Part shown: positions 3,554 to 12,453 of the stretch, piece by piece | How the letters are laid out: the number at the start of each line of letters is the position of its first letter | Position numbering within the stretch: position 1 is the stretch's first letter | Notes under the pieces: model-generated | What the model saw: the letters and a program-made list of their open reading frames with translations, nothing else | The model's database searches: none | Told to the model about the DNA's origin: nothing | Source of the DNA: a virus | Length of the DNA: 27,453 bases | Strand: one strand, 5' to 3' | UHGV virus genome: UHGV-1341913 | Position numbers and translations under genes: made by a program

Positions 3554-3886
3554 ATGAAAACGATTAATCTGAACGCTGCAGTTAAAACTAAATGCTTCAA
3601 TGGTAAATATGATGAAACTATGTGGTTCTTAATGGCAGTTGAAGGTGATATCATTGAAGTAGAAACAACAGAAGGTATGGGAACAGATTTCACCTTTACA
3701 ATTCAAGTTCATAATTTCTTTACTGGTTGGATTTATGAATTGAATACAATAATCGTTGGAAAAATTGAACAAAATGAATTAGGTGAATGGTATTATGTTA
3801 CAGCTCGCCAACGTGCCGAACGCTTAATTGAGAAGATGAAAAAAGTTGGTAAACTTGACATGCAGCATTGGAAAGTAGTAAAATAA
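3554..3886 (+). CDS. hypothetical early protein (30.8 position)
   Basis: 110-aa ORF with RBS aaaggaga before the ATG. Confidence 0.6.
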   Translation: MKTINLNAAVKTKCFNGKYDETMWFLMAVEGDIIEVETTEGMGTDFTFTIQVHNFFTGWIYELNTIIVGKIEQNELGEWYYVTARQRAERLIEKMKKVGKLDMQHWKVVK

Positions 3887-3941: not shown

Positions 3942-4319
3942 TTGGAGAATAAAATGAACTACATTAACTTTGAACGTAAATATGTTTCTAACGGTATTGC
4001 AGGTTCTATTGATACTATCTGCCTTTGGAAACATCAAAATGGATCAGTATGCGAAATTGAACAGTATATGACTCCTAACTACGTTTATATGCGATTTGAA
4101 AATGGCATCACGGTTTCAATCACGAAAGAAGGTTCTTCTTTTAAAATCGCTCTGGATGATGATTTCCGTCAACGTGATTTAGGGACTCATCCTTGCTGGA
4201 ATGGCGTCAATCGTAAACTTCTGGTTAAAACTTGGATTCGTCATATTCTGAGTAACAGAGCTAAACCTGAGCATCTTGAAGCAATCTTTGATGTAGTTCT
4301 TAACGAATTTGATATTTAA
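3942..4319 (+). CDS. hypothetical early protein (30.7 position)
   Basis: 125-aa ORF with RBS ggaga. Confidence 0.6.
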   Translation: MENKMNYINFERKYVSNGIAGSIDTICLWKHQNGSVCEIEQYMTPNYVYMRFENGITVSITKEGSSFKIALDDDFRQRDLGTHPCWNGVNRKLLVKTWIRHILSNRAKPEHLEAIFDVVLNEFDI

Positions 4320-4327
4320 AATAAAAT

Positions 4328-4345
4328 GAGGGGCTTCGGCCCCTT
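4328..4345 (+). other. stable UUCG-tetraloop RNA hairpin (no T-run)
   Basis: AGGGGC-TTCG-GCCCCT between 30.7 and 30.6. It is not followed by a U-tract, so it is more likely an mRNA-stabilising or processing hairpin than a terminator. Confidence 0.5.
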
Positions 4346-4360
4346 ACTGAGGAAAATACT

Positions 4361-4648
4361 ATGTTTATGACTACTTATTTTGATACCCGCAAAAATTTCT
4401 GTGAAGTGGTTTTCTCTAAGGCGCCTAAAGATCTTCCTGCTCATTTGCAACCTACCAGCGAATCGATTAAAAACTACGTTAATGTAGTATGTCCTTTAGA
4501 GTTCCGTACTGTAAATGGGCGCGATACTTTAGCTATCACTAAACTCAATCGTGAAATTGACATTGACCCTTCAATTGCGTGTGAAATTAACATTTCTGAT
4601 ATTGGCGGCGGTAATGTTAAATCGCACGGTTTTCAGATGAGGTTCTAA
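4361..4648 (+). CDS. hypothetical early protein (30.6 position)
   Basis: 95-aa ORF with RBS gagg. Confidence 0.6.
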   Translation: MFMTTYFDTRKNFCEVVFSKAPKDLPAHLQPTSESIKNYVNVVCPLEFRTVNGRDTLAITKLNREIDIDPSIACEINISDIGGGNVKSHGFQMRF

Positions 4649-4845
4649 TGAAATTCTTTTTAGGTCAAACTGTTGAATTAAAGGGAGTTGGTATACCTGG
4701 ATTAATTTCTAAGGTTCTACCTCCATTTAAATGGAGTGGTATTCAAATAAAAGAGGCTTATATTGTTTCCTGGGTAGATGGAAATGAAGACCTTCGTATG
4801 GGCGATGAATTATCTCCTATTTACGGATTAAAGGAATTAGTATGA
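4648..4845 (+). CDS. hypothetical early protein (30.5 position)
   Basis: 65-aa ORF, start overlaps upstream stop (TAATG). Confidence 0.5.
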   Translation: MKFFLGQTVELKGVGIPGLISKVLPPFKWSGIQIKEAYIVSWVDGNEDLRMGDELSPIYGLKELV

Positions 4846-5048
4846 ATATAATTAATAAGATTTTTGGAATTCAGTATATTAAGGTCACATATAAAGTAAC
4901 AGATAAAAATCCATATACTGATGAACATGAAGAACCACAAGTTGAGTCTATTATATTAGAAAAGGACCCTAACTGGCCAGTTGAATTTCGTCTTCCTTGC
5001 TATGGTCATTGGGCTGATGTTGAAATTATAAGTATTGAAAATGTCTGA
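4842..5048 (+). CDS. hypothetical early protein (30.4 position)
   Basis: 68-aa ORF with ATGA overlap to the upstream ORF. Confidence 0.5.
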   Translation: MNIINKIFGIQYIKVTYKVTDKNPYTDEHEEPQVESIILEKDPNWPVEFRLPCYGHWADVEIISIENV

Positions 5049-5499
5049 GCTAGAGATAAGAAGCAATTTTAAATGGCCATCATGCGCATTAAGTAATTTC
5101 GCCCAATGGCCTTTCGTTATGGATGGTATTCAATTTGGAGGTCTCGAAGGATTCCTCCAAGGATGCAAGGTGAAAAATGTTGAACAGCAACGTCGTATAT
5201 TTGGGTTATCCGGGCTTGCCGCCCAACAAGCTGGAAGGTCTTGTGCTAGAGCTCAGGACCGTGGGACCCTCTTTTGGCTTGGAGTTCCGTTTTCAAGATA
5301 CTCACCGGCGTGGAAAGAATTATACACAAATGCATATTTTGAAGCAGCGTTCCAAAACAAGGGCTTTCGTGATGCATTACAAGCCTCGAAAGGAAAAGTT
5401 TTGAAGCACAGCATGGCTAGTGGTCTAACAAAAGATGATACAATACTAACCGAAGCTGAATTTATTGATGTGTTAAACCTATTAAGAGACTCTCTATGA
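5035..5499 (+). CDS. NADAR / YbiA-like (DUF1768) domain protein (30.3 position)
   Basis: 154-aa ORF. The segment LSNFAQWPFVMDGIQF...EGFLQ resembles the FSNFAAWPIKVDG...EHYFQ core of E. coli YbiA (NADAR family). The central part of the gene is conspicuously GC-rich (62 of 120 nt G+C over 5161..5280 by hand count). Confidence 0.6.
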   Translation: MKMSELEIRSNFKWPSCALSNFAQWPFVMDGIQFGGLEGFLQGCKVKNVEQQRRIFGLSGLAAQQAGRSCARAQDRGTLFWLGVPFSRYSPAWKELYTNAYFEAAFQNKGFRDALQASKGKVLKHSMASGLTKDDTILTEAEFIDVLNLLRDSL

Positions 5500-6335
5500 A
5501 GCCAACTATTTTGACTGATATTGATGGAGTATGTTTAAGCTGGCAATCAGGACTTCCTTATTTTGCTCAGAAATATAATCTTCCGTTAGAACATATTTTA
5601 AAAATGATCCAAGATGAGAAATTTATTTCTCCAGGTAAACTCTTTAATTGTGATGAAGAACTTGGCGTCAAGTTAATTGAAAAATACAATCGATCAGATT
5701 TTATTCGTTACTTGTCTCCATATAAAGATGCCCTGTGTGTAATTAACAAATTAAAAGAAGATTATAATTTTGTAGCTGTTACAGCATTAGGTGATTCTAT
5801 TGACGCTCTGTTGAATCGTCAATTTAATTTGAATGCTCTTTTTCCTGGTGCCTTCTCAGAAGTAATGATGTGTGGTCATGATTCTTCAAAAGAAGAGCTG
5901 TTCAAAAAGGCAAAAGAGAAGTATAACGTAATTTGTTATATTGACGATCTTGCTCACCACTGCGACCACGCGAGTGAAATATTAAATGTTCCGGTTTATT
6001 GGATGGCTCGAGGAGAGCGTGACAATATTCCAAAAACTGCGCAGCGAGTTTATACATGGAATGATGTAGAAAATAAGCTTTTTTCGCCGAAGGAAAATAA
6101 AGAAAGTTTTGATAGTGAAAAAGCTATAAAAGATTTAATTGAGAAGATGGTTAAAAACGATTCTTTTCCTTGGAACACTACCTGGAGAACGCCTGGATTT
6201 AATCCTTATAATCATCTATATCATCCATATCAGACACATCCGTTTCAGACATGGAACTACATTAAACCTGGTGGCATAGAGTATTTGTATAATAGACCTA
6301 CTAGCGGTGATAATATTTTCCAAGGAGCATTCTAA
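5496..6335 (+). CDS. HAD-like hydrolase domain protein (30.2 position); putative phosphatase or nucleotidase
   Basis: 279-aa ORF. N-terminus TILTDIDGVCL fits HAD motif I (hhhhDxDx[T/V]), and a later YIDDLAHH fits the acidic motif IV. Functional call is an inference from motifs only. Confidence 0.5.
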   Translation: MKPTILTDIDGVCLSWQSGLPYFAQKYNLPLEHILKMIQDEKFISPGKLFNCDEELGVKLIEKYNRSDFIRYLSPYKDALCVINKLKEDYNFVAVTALGDSIDALLNRQFNLNALFPGAFSEVMMCGHDSSKEELFKKAKEKYNVICYIDDLAHHCDHASEILNVPVYWMARGERDNIPKTAQRVYTWNDVENKLFSPKENKESFDSEKAIKDLIEKMVKNDSFPWNTTWRTPGFNPYNHLYHPYQTHPFQTWNYIKPGGIEYLYNRPTSGDNIFQGAF

Positions 6336-6604
6336 TGTTTGTTGTTCACACTATTTATGAAAATGAAGGTAATACTACACGTGATTATGGTCACGTAAAT
6401 CAATTTTTTAGATGCAATCCAGAATTCCGAGCTCAAAAAGACGAACGAATTTTTAAAAAATGTGTAGAGCAAGGTTTCATTTACGTTAAGCACTGGATGC
6501 AAGGAAATAAAGTTAGAACTACATATCATAGGTCTTTGCCTGAGCTTAATGATGAATTGATTTATAATAGAGCTGTAAACCAAACCTTGAAGGATGAGCA
6601 ATGA
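6335..6604 (+). CDS. hypothetical early protein (30.1 position)
   Basis: 89-aa ORF, start overlaps the upstream stop. Confidence 0.5.
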   Translation: MFVVHTIYENEGNTTRDYGHVNQFFRCNPEFRAQKDERIFKKCVEQGFIYVKHWMQGNKVRTTYHRSLPELNDELIYNRAVNQTLKDEQ

Positions 6605-8061
6605 TTCTTAAAATTCTGAATGAAATAGCATCTATTGGATCAACTAAGCAGAAGCAAGCAATTCTTGAAAAGAATAAAGATAATGAATTGCTTAAACGAG
6701 TATATCGTCTGACTTATTCTCGTGGGCTACAGTATTATATCAAGAAATGGCCTAAACCTGGTATTGCTACCCAGAGTTTTGGAATGCTGACTATTACCGA
6801 TATGCTGGACTTCATTGAGTTCACGTTAGCTACTCGGAAATTAACTGGCAATGCAGCAATTGAGGAATTAACTGGATATATCACTGATGGTAAAAAGGAT
6901 GATGTTGAAGTTTTGCGTCGAGTTATGATGCGAGATCTTGAATGCGGTGCTTCAGTATCTATTGCAAATAAAGTTTGGCCAGGTTTAATTCCTGAACAAC
7001 CTCAAATGCTGGCAAGTTCTTATGATGAAAAAGGCATTAATAAGAATATCAAGTTTCCAGCCTTTGCGCAGTTAAAAGCAGATGGAGCTCGGTGTTTTGC
7101 TGAAGTCCGAGGCGATGAATTAGATGATGTTCGTCTTTTATCACGAGCTGGTAATGAATATCTAGGATTAGATCTTCTTAAGGAAGAGTTAATCAAAATG
7201 ACTGCAGAAGCCCGCCAGATTCATCCAGAAGGTGTGTTAATCGATGGCGAATTAGTATACCATGAGCAAGTTGAAAAGGAGCCAGAAGGCCTAGATTTTC
7301 TTTTTGACGCTCCTGAAATCAGTAAAGCTAAAGAGTTTTCCGAAGTAGCTGAATCACGTACTGCTTCTAATGGAATCGCCAATAAATCTTTAAAGGGAAC
7401 TATTTCAGAAAAAGAAGCTCAATGCATGAAGTTTCAGGTCTGGGATTATGTCCCATTAGTAGAAATATATGGTCTTCCGGCGTTTCGTTTAAAATATGAT
7501 GTACGTTTTTCTAAACTAGAACAAATGACATCAGGATATGATAAAGTAATTTTAATTGAAAACCAGGTAGTAAATAACCTAGATGAAGCTAAGGTAATTT
7601 ATAAAAAATATATTGACCAAGGTCTTGAAGGTATTATTCTCAAAAATACCGATGGATTGTGGGAAAATGCTCGTTCAAAAAATCTCTATAAATTTAAAGA
7701 AGTAATTGATGTTGATTTAAAAATTGTAGGAATTTATCCTCACCGTAAAGACCCTACTAAAGCAGGTGGATTTATTCTTGAATCAGAGTGTGGAAAAATT
7801 AAAGTAAATGCTGGTTCAGGCTTAAAAGATAAAGCCGGTGTAAAATCGCATGAACTTGACCGTACTCGCATTATGGAAAACCAAAATTATTATATTGGAA
7901 AAATTCTAGAGTGCGAATGTAATGGTTGGTTAAAATCTGATGGCCGCACTGATTACGTTAAATTATTTCTTCCGATTGCGATTCGTTTACGTGAAGATAA
8001 AACTAAAGCTAATACATTCGAGGATGTATTTGGTGATTTTCATGAGGTAACTGGTCTATGA
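6601..8061 (+). CDS. 30: ATP-dependent DNA ligase
   Basis: 486-aa ORF with the adenylation motif KADGAR (lysine in QLKADGARCF). Sequence recognised as T4 DNA ligase (MILKILNEIASIGSTKQKQAILEKNKDNELLKRVYRLTYSRGLQYYIKKW...). Confidence 0.95.
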   Translation: MILKILNEIASIGSTKQKQAILEKNKDNELLKRVYRLTYSRGLQYYIKKWPKPGIATQSFGMLTITDMLDFIEFTLATRKLTGNAAIEELTGYITDGKKDDVEVLRRVMMRDLECGASVSIANKVWPGLIPEQPQMLASSYDEKGINKNIKFPAFAQLKADGARCFAEVRGDELDDVRLLSRAGNEYLGLDLLKEELIKMTAEARQIHPEGVLIDGELVYHEQVEKEPEGLDFLFDAPEISKAKEFSEVAESRTASNGIANKSLKGTISEKEAQCMKFQVWDYVPLVEIYGLPAFRLKYDVRFSKLEQMTSGYDKVILIENQVVNNLDEAKVIYKKYIDQGLEGIILKNTDGLWENARSKNLYKFKEVIDVDLKIVGIYPHRKDPTKAGGFILESECGKIKVNAGSGLKDKAGVKSHELDRTRIMENQNYYIGKILECECNGWLKSDGRTDYVKLFLPIAIRLREDKTKANTFEDVFGDFHEVTGL

Positions 8062-8295: not shown

Positions 8296-10392
8296 ATGAT
8301 GGAACTCATTACAGAATTATTTGACGAAGATACTACTCTTCCGATTACAAACTTAAATCCAAAGAAGAAAATACCGCAAATTTTTTCAGTTCATGTTGAT
8401 GACGCAATTGAACAACCAGGCTTTCGTTTGTGTACCTATACATCTGGAGGTGATACTAATCGCGATTTAAAGATGGGCGATAAAATGATGCATATTGTTC
8501 CTTTTACATTAACTGCTAAAGGTTCAATTGCTAAATTAAAAGGTCTCGGTCCAAGCCCAATTAATTACATCAATTCAGTTTTTACTGTTGCAATGCAAAC
8601 GATGCGTCAGTATAAAATTGATGCCTGTATGCTCCGTATTCTTAAGTCTAAAACTGCTGGTCAAGCTCGTCAAATTCAACTTATTGCTGATAGACTTATC
8701 CGCAGTCGTTCAGGTGGCAGATACGTCCTTCTTAAGGAACTCTGGGATTACGATAAAAAGTACGCATATATTCTTATACATCGCAAAAATGTATCATTAG
8801 AAGACATTCCAGGAGTTCCGGAAATTAGTACAGAGCTCTTTACTAAAGTTGAATCGAAGGTCGGCGATGTTTATATCAATAAAGATACCGGAGCTCAAGT
8901 AACTAAAAATGAGGCCATTGCAGCATCTATTGCGCAAGAAAACGATAAACGTTCTGACCAAGCTGTAATCGTTAAAGTTAAAATTTCCCGTAGAGCAATT
9001 GCACAAAGTCAATCATTAGAATCTTCTAGATTTGAAAGTGAATTATTCCAGAAGTATGAATCTACCGCAGCTAATTTCAATAAACCTGCTACCGCTCCTT
9101 TAATTCCCGAAGCAGAAGAAATGAAACTTGGAATTAATTCATTAGCTTCTAAAACCAAGGCAGCAAAAATTATTGCCGAAGGAACCGCAAATGAACTTCA
9201 TTATGATTATAAATTCTTTTCAAAAAGTGAGGTTGATGAAGTTTCTGAAAAGATTAAAGATGTAATTCTTAATGCGATTAAAAATGAACCAACTACTTCA
9301 ATAAAATGTTTAGAGAAATACGCAGCAGCTGTTAATCAATTCTTTGAAGAATATAAAGATAATTGGCTTGATAAACACAATAAAACTCGTAAAGGACAGA
9401 CAGATGAAGTCTGGGAAGAAATAACTAAAAATTCCTGGAACGCAGCAAAAACTAAATTCCTCAAAAGAATGATTTATAGCTTTTCTGGAATTGGTGCAGG
9501 TCCAATGATTGATATTACTATTGCCCGCGATGGTTCTAAATATACTCCATCACAAAAGCGCGGCATTAGAGAGTATTGTGGTTCAGGATATACTGACATC
9601 AATAATCTTCTTTTAGGACGCTACAATCCAGAACGATATGATGTAATGAGTGAAAAAGAAATTGAATCTGCGATAAATAATTTAGATTCAGCCTTTGAAA
9701 ATGGTGACCGTATACCAGAAGGCATTACAGTTTATCGTGCTCAAAGCATGACTGCTCCTATATACGAAGCACTAGTTAAAAATAAAGTGTTCTATTTCAG
9801 AAATTTTGTATCTACTTCTTTAACTCCTATCATTTTTGGACGTTTTGGAATTACGCATGCTGGTATTGGTCTTTTAGAACCAGAAGCTCGTAATGAATTG
9901 ACAGTTGATAAAAATGAAGAAGGAATAACTATTAATTCAAACGAAATAAGAGCGTATAAAGAAAATCCCGAATACGTTAAAGTTCAAATAGGATGGGCAA
10001 TTGATGGAGCTCATAAAGTTAATGTTGTATATCCAGGAAGCCTCGGAATAGCAACAGAAGCTGAAGTTATTCTACCACGCGGATTGATGGTCAAAGTTAA
10101 TAAAATAACTGATGCTTCTAATAATGACGGAACAACATCTAATAATACAAAACTCATTCAAGCTGAAGTTATGACTACGGAAGAACTCACTGAATCAGTA
10201 ATTTATGACGGTGACCGTCTAATGGAAACTGGTGAAGTAGTTGCAATGACAGGTGATATTGAAATAGAAGACAGAGTTGACTTTGCATCATTTGTTTCAT
10301 CAAATGTTAAACAAAAAGTAGAATCATCTCTTGGAATTATTGCATCTTGCATAGATATTGCAAGCATGCCTTACAAGTTCATTCAAGGATAA
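8296..10392 (+). CDS. alt: ADP-ribosyltransferase Alt (virion-packaged; modifies host RNA polymerase)
   Basis: 698-aa ORF (an alternative start at 8299 gives MELITELF, the T4 Alt N-terminus as I recall it). C-terminal region carries the R-S-E class ART motifs: YRAQ, FVSTSL, EAEVILPRG. RBS agagagga. Confidence 0.88.
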   Translation: MMELITELFDEDTTLPITNLNPKKKIPQIFSVHVDDAIEQPGFRLCTYTSGGDTNRDLKMGDKMMHIVPFTLTAKGSIAKLKGLGPSPINYINSVFTVAMQTMRQYKIDACMLRILKSKTAGQARQIQLIADRLIRSRSGGRYVLLKELWDYDKKYAYILIHRKNVSLEDIPGVPEISTELFTKVESKVGDVYINKDTGAQVTKNEAIAASIAQENDKRSDQAVIVKVKISRRAIAQSQSLESSRFESELFQKYESTAANFNKPATAPLIPEAEEMKLGINSLASKTKAAKIIAEGTANELHYDYKFFSKSEVDEVSEKIKDVILNAIKNEPTTSIKCLEKYAAAVNQFFEEYKDNWLDKHNKTRKGQTDEVWEEITKNSWNAAKTKFLKRMIYSFSGIGAGPMIDITIARDGSKYTPSQKRGIREYCGSGYTDINNLLLGRYNPERYDVMSEKEIESAINNLDSAFENGDRIPEGITVYRAQSMTAPIYEALVKNKVFYFRNFVSTSLTPIIFGRFGITHAGIGLLEPEARNELTVDKNEEGITINSNEIRAYKENPEYVKVQIGWAIDGAHKVNVVYPGSLGIATEAEVILPRGLMVKVNKITDASNNDGTTSNNTKLIQAEVMTTEELTESVIYDGDRLMETGEVVAMTGDIEIEDRVDFASFVSSNVKQKVESSLGIIASCIDIASMPYKFIQG

Positions 10393-10395
10393 ATC

Positions 10396-12453
10396 ATGGA
10401 ACTTATTACAGAATTATTTGACGGCGCTTCGGCGCCGGTTGTTAACTTAAATCCTAAGCATAAAATACCTCAAATTTTTGCTATTCAAGCCGGTGAAGAA
10501 AGCGTGCTTCCTGGATTTAGATTTTGTACATACACCTCCGGTGGTGATACAAATAAAAACGTTAAGCCAGGCGATAAAATGATGCATATCGTAATGATAG
10601 GTGTCAATGAGAAACTATCATTAGTTAAACTTAAAAACTTGGGTGGAAATCCAATTGGTGTCATTAATGCGGTTTTTGATACTGCTCTTCAAACAATGAA
10701 ACAGTATAAAATTGACGCATGCCTATTCCGCGTACTAAAAAGTAAAACAAATGGCGCTGCTCGTCAGATGCAAGTTATTGCTGACCGTTTAGTACGTACT
10801 AAAGGAGCAGGTCGATATGTTCTTTTAAAGGAAATCTGGGATTACGATAAAAAGTATGCATATATTATGGTTTACCGTAAAAATGCCAATTTAGAAGACA
10901 TTCCAGGTGTACCTCCTATTTCAACTGAGTTATTCACAAAAGTTGAATCAAAGGTTGGTGATGTTTATGTAGATGTTAAAACAGGTAATGCTGTTCCTAA
11001 AGCTGTTGCTGTTGCTGCTTCTATTGCTTTAGAAAATGATAAGCGCACGGATCAAGCTGTTATTCAGAAAACTAAAATTAGTCGTCGATTAGCAGCACAA
11101 GCTCAATATTCTACTGTCGATGCTTCGCTACAGGGTGATAGCTTCGCTGCCAAGAAATATCAAGAGTTTGAATCTAAAGTTCCGGTATATAAAGCAGAAG
11201 GACCAATGAACTCTGGCGTTATTCAGATTGGTTCCAACTTCAGCAAAGGAGCTATCGGTGGTATGAGAAGTGCTTCTCGTTTTAAATCTAACGATTATGA
11301 ACTAGAAAGCTTCCGAAATCATATTGCATTGGCCCATGCACGTTTACGTGATCCGTCTATCAGACTGCAGAGCGATATAACACATCAAGGTTCTCAAGAA
11401 TATTTAAAGAATAAAGAATTTTTTGATTATAAAACCGATAAAATTTTGAGCGATCTCGCTGACATTAATATTTCTAATAGCTTTGATGTTATTAAGAAAA
11501 TTATCAATGATTTAGTTAAAGGTTCTAAAGCCACACCAGACGAAAAGGTAGCTATTATTCAATTTGTCATGAATGGCATTTATAAATTGATTAATGAATC
11601 TGCTGCTCAGGCATATGAATATGCAAGCACCGAAGTAACTCCAAAAGGACTGACTCAGGCTGAGTCTGATGTAATTGAAGATTATTGTGCAGATTCATAT
11701 GTTGAAATGAACTCGTTCCTCTTGGGTAAACCAGATTCTACCCGTGAAGAATACATGGAACGAGCTATTAAACACATCGAGACGCTGGATTCTGCATTCG
11801 CCAAAGGATCAGTTCTTCCTCCAGGAACTACGCTTTATCGTGGGCAAGAAGTTACTTTTAAAACTTTACGTCATAATATTGAAAATAAAATGTTCTATTT
11901 CAAGAACTTCGTATCCACGTCGCTTAAACCAAATATCTTCGGTGAGCATGGTAAAAACTATATGGCTCTAGATGATTCCGGCGCAGTATTTTCTGGTGAA
12001 GGAGAAGGTTCTGTTGATGCTGAAGATTTAATGCATATGGGTAGTCATTCTGCATATGCTAATGAAGATGCTGAAGCTAGCGTAGGTATGGTAATTAAAG
12101 GGGCTGAGCGAATCAAAGTTATCGTTCCAGGTCATTTATCAGGATTTCCATCAGAAGCTGAAGTTATTCTACCGCGTGGAATTTTGTTGAAGATTAATAA
12201 AGTAAGCACGTACATGATGAAAGAAACTGCCTATAACAAGTATCTAATCGAAGGCACAATCGTTCCTCCTTCTGAACAATTAGAAGAATCGGTATATGAT
12301 GGCGATCATCTAATGGAAACTGGTGAAGTTCGTCCAATGGCTGGGTTTAATCAATTCCTTGTAGAAGAATCAAAAGAAGAGGAAACTGAAGTTTCTCAAA
12401 TCTTGGCTTCTTTGGTTAACATCAACGGAATGTCTAAAAAGTTCAAGATGTAG
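10396..12453 (+). CDS. Alt-like ADP-ribosyltransferase paralog (intact second copy)
   Basis: 685-aa ORF starting 3 nt after the alt stop. The N-terminal ~230 aa are clearly homologous to Alt (MELITELFDG..., KIPQIF, GFRFCTYTSGGDTN, KQYKIDAC, GRYVLLKE, WDYDKKYAYI). ART motifs retained: YRGQ, FVSTSL, EAEVILPRG. Confidence 0.8.
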   Translation: MELITELFDGASAPVVNLNPKHKIPQIFAIQAGEESVLPGFRFCTYTSGGDTNKNVKPGDKMMHIVMIGVNEKLSLVKLKNLGGNPIGVINAVFDTALQTMKQYKIDACLFRVLKSKTNGAARQMQVIADRLVRTKGAGRYVLLKEIWDYDKKYAYIMVYRKNANLEDIPGVPPISTELFTKVESKVGDVYVDVKTGNAVPKAVAVAASIALENDKRTDQAVIQKTKISRRLAAQAQYSTVDASLQGDSFAAKKYQEFESKVPVYKAEGPMNSGVIQIGSNFSKGAIGGMRSASRFKSNDYELESFRNHIALAHARLRDPSIRLQSDITHQGSQEYLKNKEFFDYKTDKILSDLADINISNSFDVIKKIINDLVKGSKATPDEKVAIIQFVMNGIYKLINESAAQAYEYASTEVTPKGLTQAESDVIEDYCADSYVEMNSFLLGKPDSTREEYMERAIKHIETLDSAFAKGSVLPPGTTLYRGQEVTFKTLRHNIENKMFYFKNFVSTSLKPNIFGEHGKNYMALDDSGAVFSGEGEGSVDAEDLMHMGSHSAYANEDAEASVGMVIKGAERIKVIVPGHLSGFPSEAEVILPRGILLKINKVSTYMMKETAYNKYLIEGTIVPPSEQLEESVYDGDHLMETGEVRPMAGFNQFLVEESKEEETEVSQILASLVNINGMSKKFKM
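10422..10437 (+). other. GC-only UUCG-tetraloop hairpin embedded in the coding sequence
   Basis: CGGCGC-TTCG-GCGCCG, a perfect 6-bp G/C stem, lies 26-41 nt downstream of the paralog ATG and encodes G-A-S-A-P. The first alt copy has unrelated sequence at the equivalent position. Confidence 0.5.

What the first reader, a model, noticed from the sequence alone, without database searches (positions are those of the whole stretch)
5496..6335. HAD-superfamily-like signature in the 279-aa early protein adjacent to the NADAR gene
The N-terminus TILTDIDGVCL matches HAD motif I (nucleophile Asp then DxDx[T/V]) and YIDDLAHH resembles motif IV, suggesting a phosphatase or 5'(3')-nucleotidase-type enzyme, with a C-terminal extension of unknown function. 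Its start overlaps the stop of the NADAR gene, implying co-expression. A nucleotidase next to an ADP-ribose-processing enzyme could form a small nucleotide-metabolite processing module.
Basis: inference. Interest (0 to 1): 0.4.

Follow-up and report, generated by a model that had tools for sequence, protein, structure and literature searches.

The report
T4 gp30.2: a HAD-fold nucleotidase-like phosphatase
The 279-residue protein is the phage T4 gene 30.2 product, a probably active HAD-family phosphatase closest to small nucleotidases; its conserved neighbour is the DNA ligase gene rather than the NADAR gene, and published T4 transposon data show it is dispensable.

Summary
ORF 5496-6335 (+) encodes 279 aa with TILTDIDGVCL (aa 4-14) and YIDDLAHH (aa 148-155), and its ATG overlaps the upstream TGA as ATGA. 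The window is a Tequatrovirus and the ORF is T4 gene 30.2 (97% identical to T4's; PHROG 420, "unknown function"; no Pfam or NCBIfam family).

The "module with NADAR" idea is not supported:
- Overlapping stop/start codons occur at seven consecutive junctions in this cluster.
- A NADAR gene lies within about 5 kb in 41 of 86 homologous loci. The ligase gene lies just downstream in 78 of 86.
- In published T4 transposon data, 30.2 insertions are neutral under DarTG1, whereas 30.3 insertions are lost.

The C-terminal tail is disordered and hypervariable but carries a recurrent GIEYLxxxPT motif, which is unexplained. Overall this is an ordinary fold assignment for an uncharacterised gene.

The parts
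5496..6335 (+). Gene 30.2 CDS (279 aa plus TAA stop). Orthologue of T4 30.2; PHROG 420.
   Evidence: phrog_420, E=7e-93; 100% identical to Escherichia phage vB_Eco_ZCEC15; 97.1% to T4.
5496..6086 (+). HAD catalytic domain, aa 1-197: a Rossmannoid core with an inserted helical cap.
5505..5534 (+). HAD motif I, TILTDIDGVC. D8 (5517-5519) is the predicted nucleophile and D10 (5523-5525) the predicted general acid/base.
   Evidence: D8, D10 and G11 are invariant in 34 homologues. D8, D10 and V12 are at least 90% conserved in 143 distant representatives.
5535..5759 (+). C1-type alpha-helical cap, aa 14-88, inserted between motifs I and II. It contains W16, F43, Y64 and the conserved block YNxSDFIRYLxPYxDA (5685-5732).
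   Evidence: Model helices 16-26, 32-40, 46-49, 54-65, 68-72 and 77-86. Conservation. W16, F43 and Y64 align with F20, F46 and Y67 of mouse cdN 2jao.
5769..5786 (+). HAD motif II, FVAVTA. T96 is at 5781-5783, at the end of strand 91-96.
5889..5891 (+). HAD motif III lysine, K132.
   Evidence: Invariant in A1 and at least 90% conserved in A2. It sits at the N-terminus of helix 133-142.
5934..5951 (+). HAD motif IV, CYIDDL. D150 and D151 are the predicted Mg2+ ligands, at the end of strand 145-150.
5817..5828 (+). Family-specific invariant residues R108 and N111, in helix 102-115. Their role is unknown.
   Evidence: Invariant in A1 and at least 90% conserved in A2. Not conserved in 3bwv.
6087..6332 (+). 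C-terminal extension, aa 198-279. One predicted helix (aa 207-220), then an aromatic/Pro-rich region predicted to be disordered.
   Evidence: pLDDT is below 50 for aa 201-205, 228-231, 239-261 and 270-279. Among homologues the tail is 2-152 aa long and hypervariable.
6270..6302 (+). Recurrent short motif GGIEYLYNRPT (aa 259-269) within the variable tail. It is a candidate partner-binding motif; no partner is known.
   Evidence: The pattern G(T)GIEY[LWY]x3PT occurs in 17 of 100 homologue clusters spanning 47-98% identity. It is unique to this ORF within the window.
5041..5499 (+). Upstream gene 30.3 (adfN), a NADAR DNA ADP-ribosylglycohydrolase. Its TGA stop overlaps the 30.2 ATG.
   Evidence: PF08010, E=6.9e-69. 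Function from PMC11825919. Overlap.
6335..6604 (+). Downstream gene 30.1 (DUF3045). Its ATG shares one base with the 30.2 TAA stop.
   Evidence: PF11243, E=1.6e-63. A natural 30.2-30.1 fusion exists, P0015.
6601..8061 (+). Gene 30, ATP-dependent DNA ligase. It is the most conserved neighbour of 30.2 across T4-like phages.
   Evidence: PF01068. Downstream on the same strand within 1.5 kb in 78 of 86 loci.
3855..3884 (+). Best sigma-70-like promoter match upstream of the 30.7-to-30 gene string. It is a possible start of the polycistronic unit that contains 30.2.
   Evidence: TTGACA-18-TAAAAT, 11 of 12 matches. No terminator-like site on the + strand between 3469 and 8400. This is a consensus match only.

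Best explanation
ORF 5496-6335 is the Tequatrovirus orthologue of T4 gene 30.2. It most likely encodes an active, Mg2+-dependent phosphomonoesterase of the HAD superfamily.

Predicted mechanism, by analogy with HAD phosphatases:
- D8 attacks the substrate phosphate to form an aspartyl-phosphate intermediate.
- D10 acts as general acid/base.
- T96 and K132 stabilise the transition state.
- D150 and D151 hold the metal.

A 75-residue helical C1 cap closes over the site, which restricts substrates to small molecules. Because its nearest relatives are 5'(3')-deoxyribonucleotidase-type enzymes, and conserved cap aromatics (W16, F43, Y64) align with dNT residues, the most likely substrate is a nucleoside monophosphate or a similar nucleotide-derived phosphoester.

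The gene is transcribed as one of a string of translationally overlapping genes that ends in the DNA ligase gene. It is an accessory, non-essential function. The variable, disordered C-terminal tail with a GIEYLxxxPT motif may tether the enzyme to a partner.

What is shown: the gene's identity, the motifs, the fold, conservation, synteny and dispensability. What is inferred: catalytic activity, substrate class and the role of the tail.

The confidence of 0.6 is for the whole statement. Taken separately, I put the HAD fold at about 0.97, an active phosphatase at about 0.85, and a nucleotide-type substrate at about 0.55.
For: Identity: 97-100% identical to gp30.2 of T4-type phages; phrog_420.

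Motifs: D8, D10, G11 and K132 are invariant, and T96, D150 and D151 are at least 90% conserved, in 34 homologues of 34-75% identity. D8, D10, V12, W16, R108, N111, K132 and D151 are at least 90% conserved in 143 cluster representatives of 21-48% identity.

Fold:
- The AF2 model has pLDDT above 90 over aa 1-197, with a beta-alpha-beta core and a helical insert between strands 1 and 2.
- Foldseek against PDB gives 100 hits at E<1e-3, all HAD enzymes. Deoxyribonucleotidases give the best target coverage: 3bwv TMt 0.66-0.71, and 2jao/2i7d/4yih TMt 0.64-0.68.

Nearest families:
- The A1 profile's best PDB hit is the 5'(3')-deoxyribonucleotidase 2jao, in register from motif I to motif II (E=0.014).
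- The wider profile hits nucleotide phosphatases 3nuq and 3onn (E=1e-5) and 3bwv (E=9e-5).
- Pfam NT5C is the commonest Pfam hit among family representatives: 37 of 143 at E<=1e-3. Two of ten distant representatives scanned individually exceed the gathering score.
- BFVD neighbours are labelled 5' nucleotidase.

Mechanistic roles of the motifs are as described for HAD nucleotidases in PMC3946280. T4 30.2 took insertions at 72 of 72 TA sites, so it is non-essential.
Against: - The window protein itself has no Pfam, NCBIfam or PDB sequence hit at significant E-values, so NT5C membership is only transitive.
- Several equally good structural neighbours are not nucleotidases: phosphoglycolate and sugar phosphatases, dehalogenases and epoxide hydrolases. 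The fold alone does not fix the substrate.
- The family-specific invariant residues R108 and N111 have no counterpart in 3bwv and may signal a different substrate.
- The role of the dNT aromatic residues in base stacking is recalled from memory and was not verified here.
- No phenotype is known in any tested condition: LB, M9, RnlAB or DarTG1.
- A general dNMP phosphatase would work against T4's nucleotide salvage.
Confidence: 0.6

Rival explanations
1. It is a generic HAD small-molecule phosphatase whose substrate is not a nucleotide, for example ribose-5-phosphate, phosphoglycolate, another sugar phosphate or a cofactor phosphate.
Against: NT5C is the most frequent specific Pfam hit (37 of 143). 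The only in-register profile hit from motif I to motif II is a deoxyribonucleotidase. Conserved cap aromatics align with dNT residues.
Confidence: 0.22
2. It is a polynucleotide 3'-phosphatase, or another DNA-end-cleaning enzyme, that prepares nicks for the adjacent DNA ligase, in the way the phosphatase domain of T4 Pnkp serves RNA ligase.
Against: - The 75-residue C1 cap is typical of small-molecule HADs. The Pnkp alignments cover only the 125-131 core residues.
- T4-type phages already encode Pnkp (for example).
- Conserved gene order in T4-like genomes can explain the adjacency without any functional coupling.
- T4 30.2 is dispensable whereas ligase is essential.
Confidence: 0.08
3. This is the first reader's model: gp30.2 and the NADAR protein gp30.3 (AdfN) form a co-expressed module, in which the phosphatase processes ADP-ribose-derived products released when AdfN removes ADP-ribose from DNA.
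For: - The ATGA stop/start overlap.
- NADAR is upstream on the same strand in all 41 loci where it is found, and directly adjacent in 21.
- Both genes are widespread in T4-like phages: 1,453 and 1,511 phage records.
- AdfN works fully only during T-even infection, and its authors suggest another T-even protein may be needed (PMC11825919).
Against: - In 45 of 86 loci the HAD gene has no NADAR within 4-5 kb (examples).
- The overlap is the rule at seven consecutive junctions.
- In T4 HIDEN-SEQ under DarTG1, 30.2 insertions are neutral (log2FC -0.12, p=0.61) while 30.3 insertions fall by log2FC -7.25. gp30.2 is therefore not required for AdfN's counter-defence.
- Ectopic adfN alone rescues RB69.
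Confidence: 0.06
4. It is a counter-defence or pool-editing enzyme. It would dephosphorylate a specific nucleotide made or needed by a host defence (a toxic or signalling nucleotide, or NMN/NAD-pathway intermediates), and the variable tail would target it to a partner.
For: - It sits in a cluster rich in NAD/ADP-ribose biology and anti-defence genes: AdfN and two Alt paralogues.
- The close family is essentially phage-restricted. A scan of species-representative genomes from 185,579 species found one hit, on a contig that looks like a phage.
- It is dispensable in laboratory hosts, as anti-defence genes usually are.
- The tails evolve fast and vary greatly.
- The wider profile hits yeast Sdt1/SSM1. 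From memory, that enzyme also acts on NMN and NaMN.
Against: There is no direct evidence. No phenotype appeared under RnlAB or DarTG1, and 30.2 is not named among the hits the preprint reports for its clinical-isolate and other defence-system screens. The Sdt1 match covers only the generic motif III-IV region.
Confidence: 0.1
5. It is a catalytically inactive HAD-fold scaffold (a pseudoenzyme).
For: No known phenotype. The long variable tail suggests a binding role.
Against: Every catalytic residue (D8, D10, T96, K132, D150, D151) is conserved down to 21% identity. That is the pattern expected for an active enzyme.
Confidence: 0.03

Closest known systems
5'(3')-deoxyribonucleotidases (Pfam NT5C, PF06941): human and mouse cdN and mdN (PDB 2jao, 2i7d, 1q92) and the Staphylococcus epidermidis deoxyribonucleotidase-like protein 3bwv
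   Same: - HAD core with a four-to-six-helix C1 cap between motifs I and II.
- A DxDGV motif I followed eight residues later by an aromatic residue (W16 here, Phe in cdN), then xSGL.
- In-register profile alignment from motif I to motif II.
- NT5C is the commonest Pfam hit among family representatives.
   Different: - The window protein does not reach any Pfam NT5C score, and identity to these structures is only 16-21%.
- The family-specific invariants R108 and N111 and the YNxSDFIRYLxPYxDA block are absent from 3bwv.
- It has an 82-residue disordered C-terminal tail.
- The close family is restricted to T4-like phages.
Yeast Sdt1/SSM1 pyrimidine nucleotidase (PDB 3nuq, 3onn, 3opx)
   Same: Best sequence-profile hits in PDB for the broad family profile (E=1e-5 to 3e-4). 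The match covers the K...DD motif III-IV region. It is also a HAD small-molecule nucleotidase.
   Different: The match covers only about 55 residues of the generic catalytic core. The motif I region scores insignificantly.
Phosphatase domain of T4 polynucleotide kinase/phosphatase (Pnkp; PDB 1ltq, 5uj0)
   Different: Pnkp has no C1 cap and acts on polynucleotide 3' ends, and it is fused to a P-loop kinase. gp30.2 has a large cap and no kinase domain.
Phage T5 deoxynucleoside-5'-monophosphatase (Dmp)
   Same: A phage-encoded early dNMP phosphatase with a HAD-like motif I (WDLDGTI). It is a possible functional analogue.
   Different: No detectable homology beyond motif I: hhalign probability is 1.5%, and Dmp has no Pfam family. 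I had recalled it as an NT5C member; the test did not support that.

Membership tests
HAD (haloacid dehalogenase-like) superfamily | Motif I, hhhhDxDx[T/V], with the nucleophile Asp at the end of strand 1. | tested here: met
   TILTDIDGVC, aa 4-13. D8, D10 and G11 are invariant in A1. D8, D10 and V12 are at least 90% conserved in A2. Strand 4-7 in the model.
HAD (haloacid dehalogenase-like) superfamily | Motif II: Ser or Thr at the end of a hydrophobic strand. | tested here: met
   FVAVT96, on strand 91-96. T96 is at least 90% conserved in A1.
HAD (haloacid dehalogenase-like) superfamily | Motif III: conserved Lys (or Arg) before the helix that leads to strand 4. | tested here: met
   K132 is invariant in A1 and at least 90% conserved in A2. 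It precedes helix 133-142.
HAD (haloacid dehalogenase-like) superfamily | Motif IV: acidic residues (DD, or DxxxD) at the end of strand 4 that bind Mg2+. | tested here: met
   YID150D151, on strand 145-150. D150 and D151 are at least 90% conserved in A1, and D151 is at least 90% conserved in A2.
HAD (haloacid dehalogenase-like) superfamily | Rossmannoid alpha/beta core fold. | tested here: met
HAD (haloacid dehalogenase-like) superfamily | The 'squiggle' and 'flap' elements after strand 1. | not testable with these tools
Only the secondary-structure string is returned.
HAD (haloacid dehalogenase-like) superfamily | Mg2+-dependent phosphoryl transfer through an aspartyl-phosphate intermediate. 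| not testable with these tools
   This needs enzymology. The presence of the second Asp (D10) argues for a phosphatase rather than a dehalogenase; this rests on established knowledge and on PMC3946280.
5'(3')-deoxyribonucleotidase family (Pfam NT5C, PF06941) | Scores above the Pfam gathering threshold for PF06941. | tested here: not met
   The window protein has no hit at E<=1. Among relatives, 6 of 34 (best E=1.2e-4) and 37 of 143 hit at E<=1e-3. Two of ten distant representatives scanned individually exceed the cut-off: P0200 at 35.6 bits and P0242 at 26.4 bits, against 24.8.
5'(3')-deoxyribonucleotidase family (Pfam NT5C, PF06941) | A helical C1 cap between motifs I and II that forms the nucleoside pocket. 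| tested here: met
   Six helices between residues 16 and 86. Full-length superposition on 3bwv and cdN.
5'(3')-deoxyribonucleotidase family (Pfam NT5C, PF06941) | Aromatic residues that stack on the base: Phe at nucleophile+8, plus cap aromatics. | tested here: inconclusive
   W16, F43 and Y64 (invariant or nearly so) align with F20, F46 and Y67 of mouse cdN in the profile alignment. That these cdN/mdN residues contact the base is recalled from the literature and was not verified here (searches found no source).
5'(3')-deoxyribonucleotidase family (Pfam NT5C, PF06941) | dNMP phosphohydrolase activity. | not testable with these tools
   No biochemical data were found in the literature library.
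Pnkp-type polynucleotide 3'-phosphatase | A capless (C0) HAD domain with an active site open to nucleic-acid ends. | tested here: not met
   A 75-residue C1 cap is present. The Pnkp alignments cover only 125-131 core residues.
Pnkp-type polynucleotide 3'-phosphatase | An associated P-loop 5'-kinase domain. | tested here: not met
   No kinase domain in Pfam, NCBIfam or PHROGs beyond the weak HAD-core overlap.
   NADAR is directly adjacent in 21 of 86 loci, within 4-5 kb in 41 of 86, and absent from the flanks in 45 of 86. By contrast the ligase gene is within 1.5 kb in 78 of 86.
   From published T4 HIDEN-SEQ data, read here. Under DarTG1, 30.2 has log2FC -0.12 (p=0.61) and 30.3 has -7.25 (adjusted p=0) (sheet order confirmed).

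The most novel reading that the evidence does not exclude
gp30.2 is not a housekeeping-type nucleotidase. It is a phage-specific enzyme with a dedicated substrate: a defence-related or NAD/ADP-ribose-derived nucleotide, or a ligase-related by-product such as AMP or NMN. Its hypervariable tail, with the conserved GIEYLxxxPT motif, would recruit it to a phage or host partner such as the ligase/gp30.1 or the replisome. It would then be an unrecognised counter-defence or replication-coupled nucleotide-editing factor conserved across T4-like phages.
Probability: 0.12. Interest if true: 0.6.

Novelty: new member of a known kind. Interest (0 to 1): 0.25.

Why it matters
gp30.2 is conserved in about 1,450 sequenced T4-like phages, almost always just upstream of the DNA ligase gene. 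Yet PHROGs lists it as "unknown function" and Pfam has no family for it. Assigning it firmly to the HAD nucleotidase-like phosphatases gives a directly testable biochemical hypothesis for one of the many uncharacterised genes of a model phage.

The work also corrects an attractive but unsupported idea, that gp30.2 works with the anti-DarT NADAR enzyme. The practical result is a better annotation and a short list of substrates to test, not a new kind of system. Scattered GenBank and JGI records already call homologues "HAD hydrolase" or "5' nucleotidase".

Tried and rejected
1. Single-sequence searches of the window protein against Pfam, NCBIfam and PDB found nothing significant. Profiles and structure prediction were needed.

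2. T5 Dmp as a homologous phage dNMP phosphatase is rejected. hhalign probability is 1.5%, only motif I aligns, and Dmp has no Pfam family. My recollection that Dmp belongs to NT5C was not confirmed.

3. The NADAR-HAD module is rejected as a required partnership, on synteny statistics and T4 transposon data.

4. Literature on gp30.2: four searches found no functional study. Only the AdfN paper mentions 30.2, in a figure legend. The main text of the CRISPRi-ART paper does not mention it.

5. I could not verify the dNT base-stacking residues from papers in the library.

6. The afdb50 fold library was unavailable, so BFVD was used instead.

7. Contexts of the most distant viral homologues (L083, L085) showed only clamp-loader-like AAA and PhoH neighbours, which gave no functional clue.

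8. Cellular homologues: the genome-contig scan found one hit, on a 178-kb phage-like contig. The broad alignment A2 was too diverse to derive search patterns.

9. I looked for the tail motif in other proteins of the window and of 86 loci. It occurs only in gp30.2 homologues, plus three chance-like antisense ORFs.

10. I ran no further search on the natural 30.2-30.1 fusion (P0015). Without PAE output or remaining fold-search jobs it would not have been decisive.
Full report
**What is there**

The window is a T4-type phage (Tequatrovirus). Region 5035-6604 is 97-98% identical at the DNA level to many Escherichia, Shigella and Yersinia T4-like phages.

ORF 5496-6335 (+) encodes 279 aa. It is 100% identical to a protein of Escherichia phage vB_Eco_ZCEC15 and 97.1% identical to T4 gene 30.2.

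Its neighbours in the window are:
- 30.3, upstream: PF08010, the NADAR enzyme AdfN.
- 30.1, downstream: DUF3045.
- Gene 30: ATP-dependent DNA ligase.
- Alt: ADP-ribosyltransferase.

**Is it a HAD enzyme?**

The window protein alone gives no hit in Pfam, NCBIfam or PDB sequences. It belongs to PHROG 420, labelled "unknown function", with weak extra hits to a polynucleotide-kinase PHROG.

A database search returned 100 homologue clusters. A few carry source names such as "HAD-superfamily hydrolase", "5'(3')-deoxyribonucleotidase" and "FMN phosphatase YigB".

Conservation covers all four catalytic motifs:
- In an alignment of 34 homologues (34-75% identity), D8, D10, G11 and K132 are invariant, and T96, D150 and D151 are at least 90% conserved.
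- A profile search of 1.84 billion cluster representatives found 1,474 relatives at E<=1e-3, most of them 190-210 aa.
- In 143 of these (21-48% identity), D8, D10, V12, W16, R108, N111, K132 and D151 are still at least 90% conserved.

So motif I (D8xD10xV), motif II (FVAVT96), motif III (K132) and motif IV (D150-D151) are all present.

A combined four-motif pattern occurs once in the six-frame translation of the window, and in 3 of 20,000 shuffles of the protein.

**Structure**

An AlphaFold2 model built on the 34-sequence alignment has pLDDT above 90 across aa 1-197. It shows a beta-alpha-beta core and six helices (aa 16-86) inserted between strands 1 and 2, which is a C1-type cap.

- Foldseek against PDB gives 100 hits at E<1e-3, and all 50 listed are HAD-fold enzymes.
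- BFVD neighbours outside the family are phage proteins, often labelled 5' nucleotidase.

**Which HAD subgroup?**

- The family profile's best PDB sequence hit is mouse cytosolic 5'(3')-deoxyribonucleotidase 2jao, aligned in register from motif I to motif II (E=0.014). DGVxxxW16xSGL matches DGVLADFESGL, and the conserved F43 and Y64 also align with aromatic residues.
- The broader profile hits the yeast nucleotidase Sdt1/SSM1 (3nuq, 3onn; E about 1e-5) and 3bwv (E=9e-5).
- Pfam NT5C is the most frequent hit among members: 6 of 34 and 37 of 143. Two of ten distant members scanned individually exceed its gathering score.
- All 143 members fall in PHROG 420. A few also touch the "5'-3' deoxyribonucleotidase" and "polynucleotide kinase" PHROGs.

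The family is therefore a divergent, phage-specific branch next to the NT5C nucleotidases, not a formal PF06941 member.

The second Asp (D10) and the cap argue for a small-molecule phosphatase rather than a dehalogenase or a polynucleotide phosphatase. The motif roles are as described for HAD nucleotidases in PMC3946280. That the aligned cdN aromatics stack the base is my recollection; I could not verify it in the library.

T5 Dmp, a phage dNMP phosphatase, turned out not to be detectably related beyond motif I.

**The proposed link to NADAR**

*Overlap.* The stop/start overlap is not special. Seven consecutive junctions, from 30.6 through alt.1, overlap by 1, 4 or 8 bases. No terminator-like site interrupts the + strand between 3469 and 8400. 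Co-transcription is likely, but it applies to the whole string of genes.

*Synteny.* I examined 86 loci carrying a 30.2 homologue: 9 diverse GenBank phages and 77 IMG/VR contigs. Iterative HMM searches of their ORFs gave:
- A NADAR gene upstream within the 4-5 kb flank in 41 loci, directly adjacent in 21.
- The DNA ligase gene downstream on the same strand within 1.5 kb in 78 loci, within 400 bp in 69, and adjacent or overlapping in 24.
- gp30.1 between them in 27 loci.

At genome level all three genes are widespread in T4-like phages: 1,453 records for 30.2, 1,511 for 30.3 and 1,764 for ligase. Co-occurrence is therefore uninformative. The conserved physical partner is the ligase, not NADAR.

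*Genetics.* A T4 transposon-sequencing preprint (HIDEN-SEQ, doi 10.1101/2025.11.20.689424) provides a direct test.
- 30.2 tolerated insertions at 72 of 72 TA sites, so it is non-essential.
- Under DarTG1, 30.2 insertions were neutral (log2FC -0.12, p=0.61) while 30.3 insertions dropped by log2FC -7.25.
- 30.2 was also neutral with RnlAB and in M9 versus LB.
- It is not named among the hits the preprint's text reports for its clinical-isolate and other defence-system screens.

The AdfN paper suggests AdfN may need another T-even protein. For DarTG1 protection, these data argue that the protein is not gp30.2.

**The C-terminal extension**

Residues 198-279 are predicted to be disordered apart from one helix at aa 207-220.

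Among homologues the tail ranges from 2 to about 150 residues and is hypervariable. There are Pro-rich and Cys-rich versions, and in one cluster a read-through fusion to gp30.1.

A short motif, G(T)GIEY[LWY]x3PT, nevertheless recurs 10-20 residues from the C-terminus in 17 of 100 clusters spanning 47-98% identity. In the window it is aa 259-269.

The motif is found in no other window ORF. In the 86 loci it occurs only in gp30.2 homologues, plus three chance-like antisense ORFs. It looks like a short linear binding motif, and its partner is unknown.

One distant relative is fused to a DNA-polymerase-like domain.

The close family is essentially confined to phages. A scan of the genome-contig collection (species-representative genomes of 185,579 species) found one hit, on a 178-kb contig that looks like a T4-like phage.

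**Most likely mechanism**

gp30.2 is most likely an active Mg2+-dependent HAD phosphomonoesterase with a closed C1 cap, acting on a small phosphoester. The most probable substrate is a nucleoside monophosphate or a related nucleotide-derived molecule.
- D8 forms the phospho-aspartate intermediate.
- D10 is the general acid/base.
- T96 and K132 bind the phosphate.
- D150 and D151 bind Mg2+.

Shown here: gene identity, motifs, fold, conservation, synteny and dispensability. Inferred: activity, substrate class and the role of the tail.

Rivals, in decreasing order of plausibility:
1. A non-nucleotide small-molecule phosphatase.
2. A dedicated counter-defence or pool-editing enzyme.
3. A DNA-end 3'-phosphatase serving the ligase. 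The synteny is suggestive, but the cap argues against it.
4. The NADAR-coupled model.
5. A pseudoenzyme.

**Novelty and verdict**

The fold assignment is sound but ordinary. Several GenBank and JGI records already label homologues as hydrolase, HAD or 5' nucleotidase, although PHROGs and Pfam do not, and I found no functional study.

It is a new, uncharacterised member of a known kind. Interest is modest. The open questions worth testing are the substrate, the conserved coupling to the ligase gene, and the tail motif.

Noticed in passing
window 8296-10392 and 10396-12453 (+): There are two tandem Alt-like ADP-ribosyltransferase genes (698 and 685 aa). They are 41% identical over their full length and both match PF03496. 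The T4 annotation table read here lists a single alt gene, so this phage carries a diverged tandem duplicate.
   Followed up: partly
window 6270-6302 (aa 259-269 of gp30.2): The motif GGIEYLYNRPT lies inside an otherwise hypervariable, disordered tail. The pattern G(T)GIEY[LWY]x3PT recurs in 17 of 100 homologue clusters down to 47% identity. It is a likely short linear binding motif with no known partner.
   Followed up: partly
window 4648-8061 (+): Seven consecutive gene junctions (30.6/30.5/30.4/30.3/30.2/30.1/30/alt.1) have overlapping stop and start codons (1, 4 or 8 bases). This suggests one translationally coupled string that ends at the ligase and alt.1.
   Followed up: yes
P0015 (homologue) and P0150: These are natural fusions. 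P0015 joins the 30.2 HAD domain to gp30.1 (DUF3045) by read-through. P0150 joins a DNA-polymerase-like PHROG 24943 domain to a C-terminal 30.2-type HAD domain. Each is a single metagenomic cluster, so artefacts are not excluded.
   Followed up: partly
L001 (Yersinia phage vB_YenM_P8) 3507-5103; P0076 (Acinetobacter phage AB1I1M-1): These look like mis-annotations in public records. In L001 the NADAR gene is labelled 'DNA ligase' and gp30.1 is labelled 'baseplate tail tube cap protein'. In P0076 a 30.2 homologue is labelled 'DNA ligase'.
   Followed up: no
L088 (NZ_JBHSCL010000010.1, 'Flagellimonas marina' assembly) 4001-4636: This is the only hit for the family in the genome-contig collection (species-representative genomes of 185,579 species). 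It lies on a 178,077-bp contig whose 30.2 homologue is 48% identical to the window's. The contig is probably a T4-like phage genome in the assembly rather than bacterial DNA.
   Followed up: no
window 4842-5048 (gene 30.4); T4 HIDEN-SEQ supplement: In the published DarTG1 transposon comparison, insertions in 30.4, just upstream of adfN, are also depleted (log2FC -1.79, adjusted p=0.014). This is probably a polar effect on 30.3, though an independent role is not excluded.
   Followed up: no
window 5035-5499 (+): The mechanical ORF call starts 30.3 at TTG 5035 (154 aa). The length of the T4 annotation (459 nt) fits the ATG at 5041 (152 aa), which overlaps the 30.4 stop by 8 bases.
   Followed up: partly
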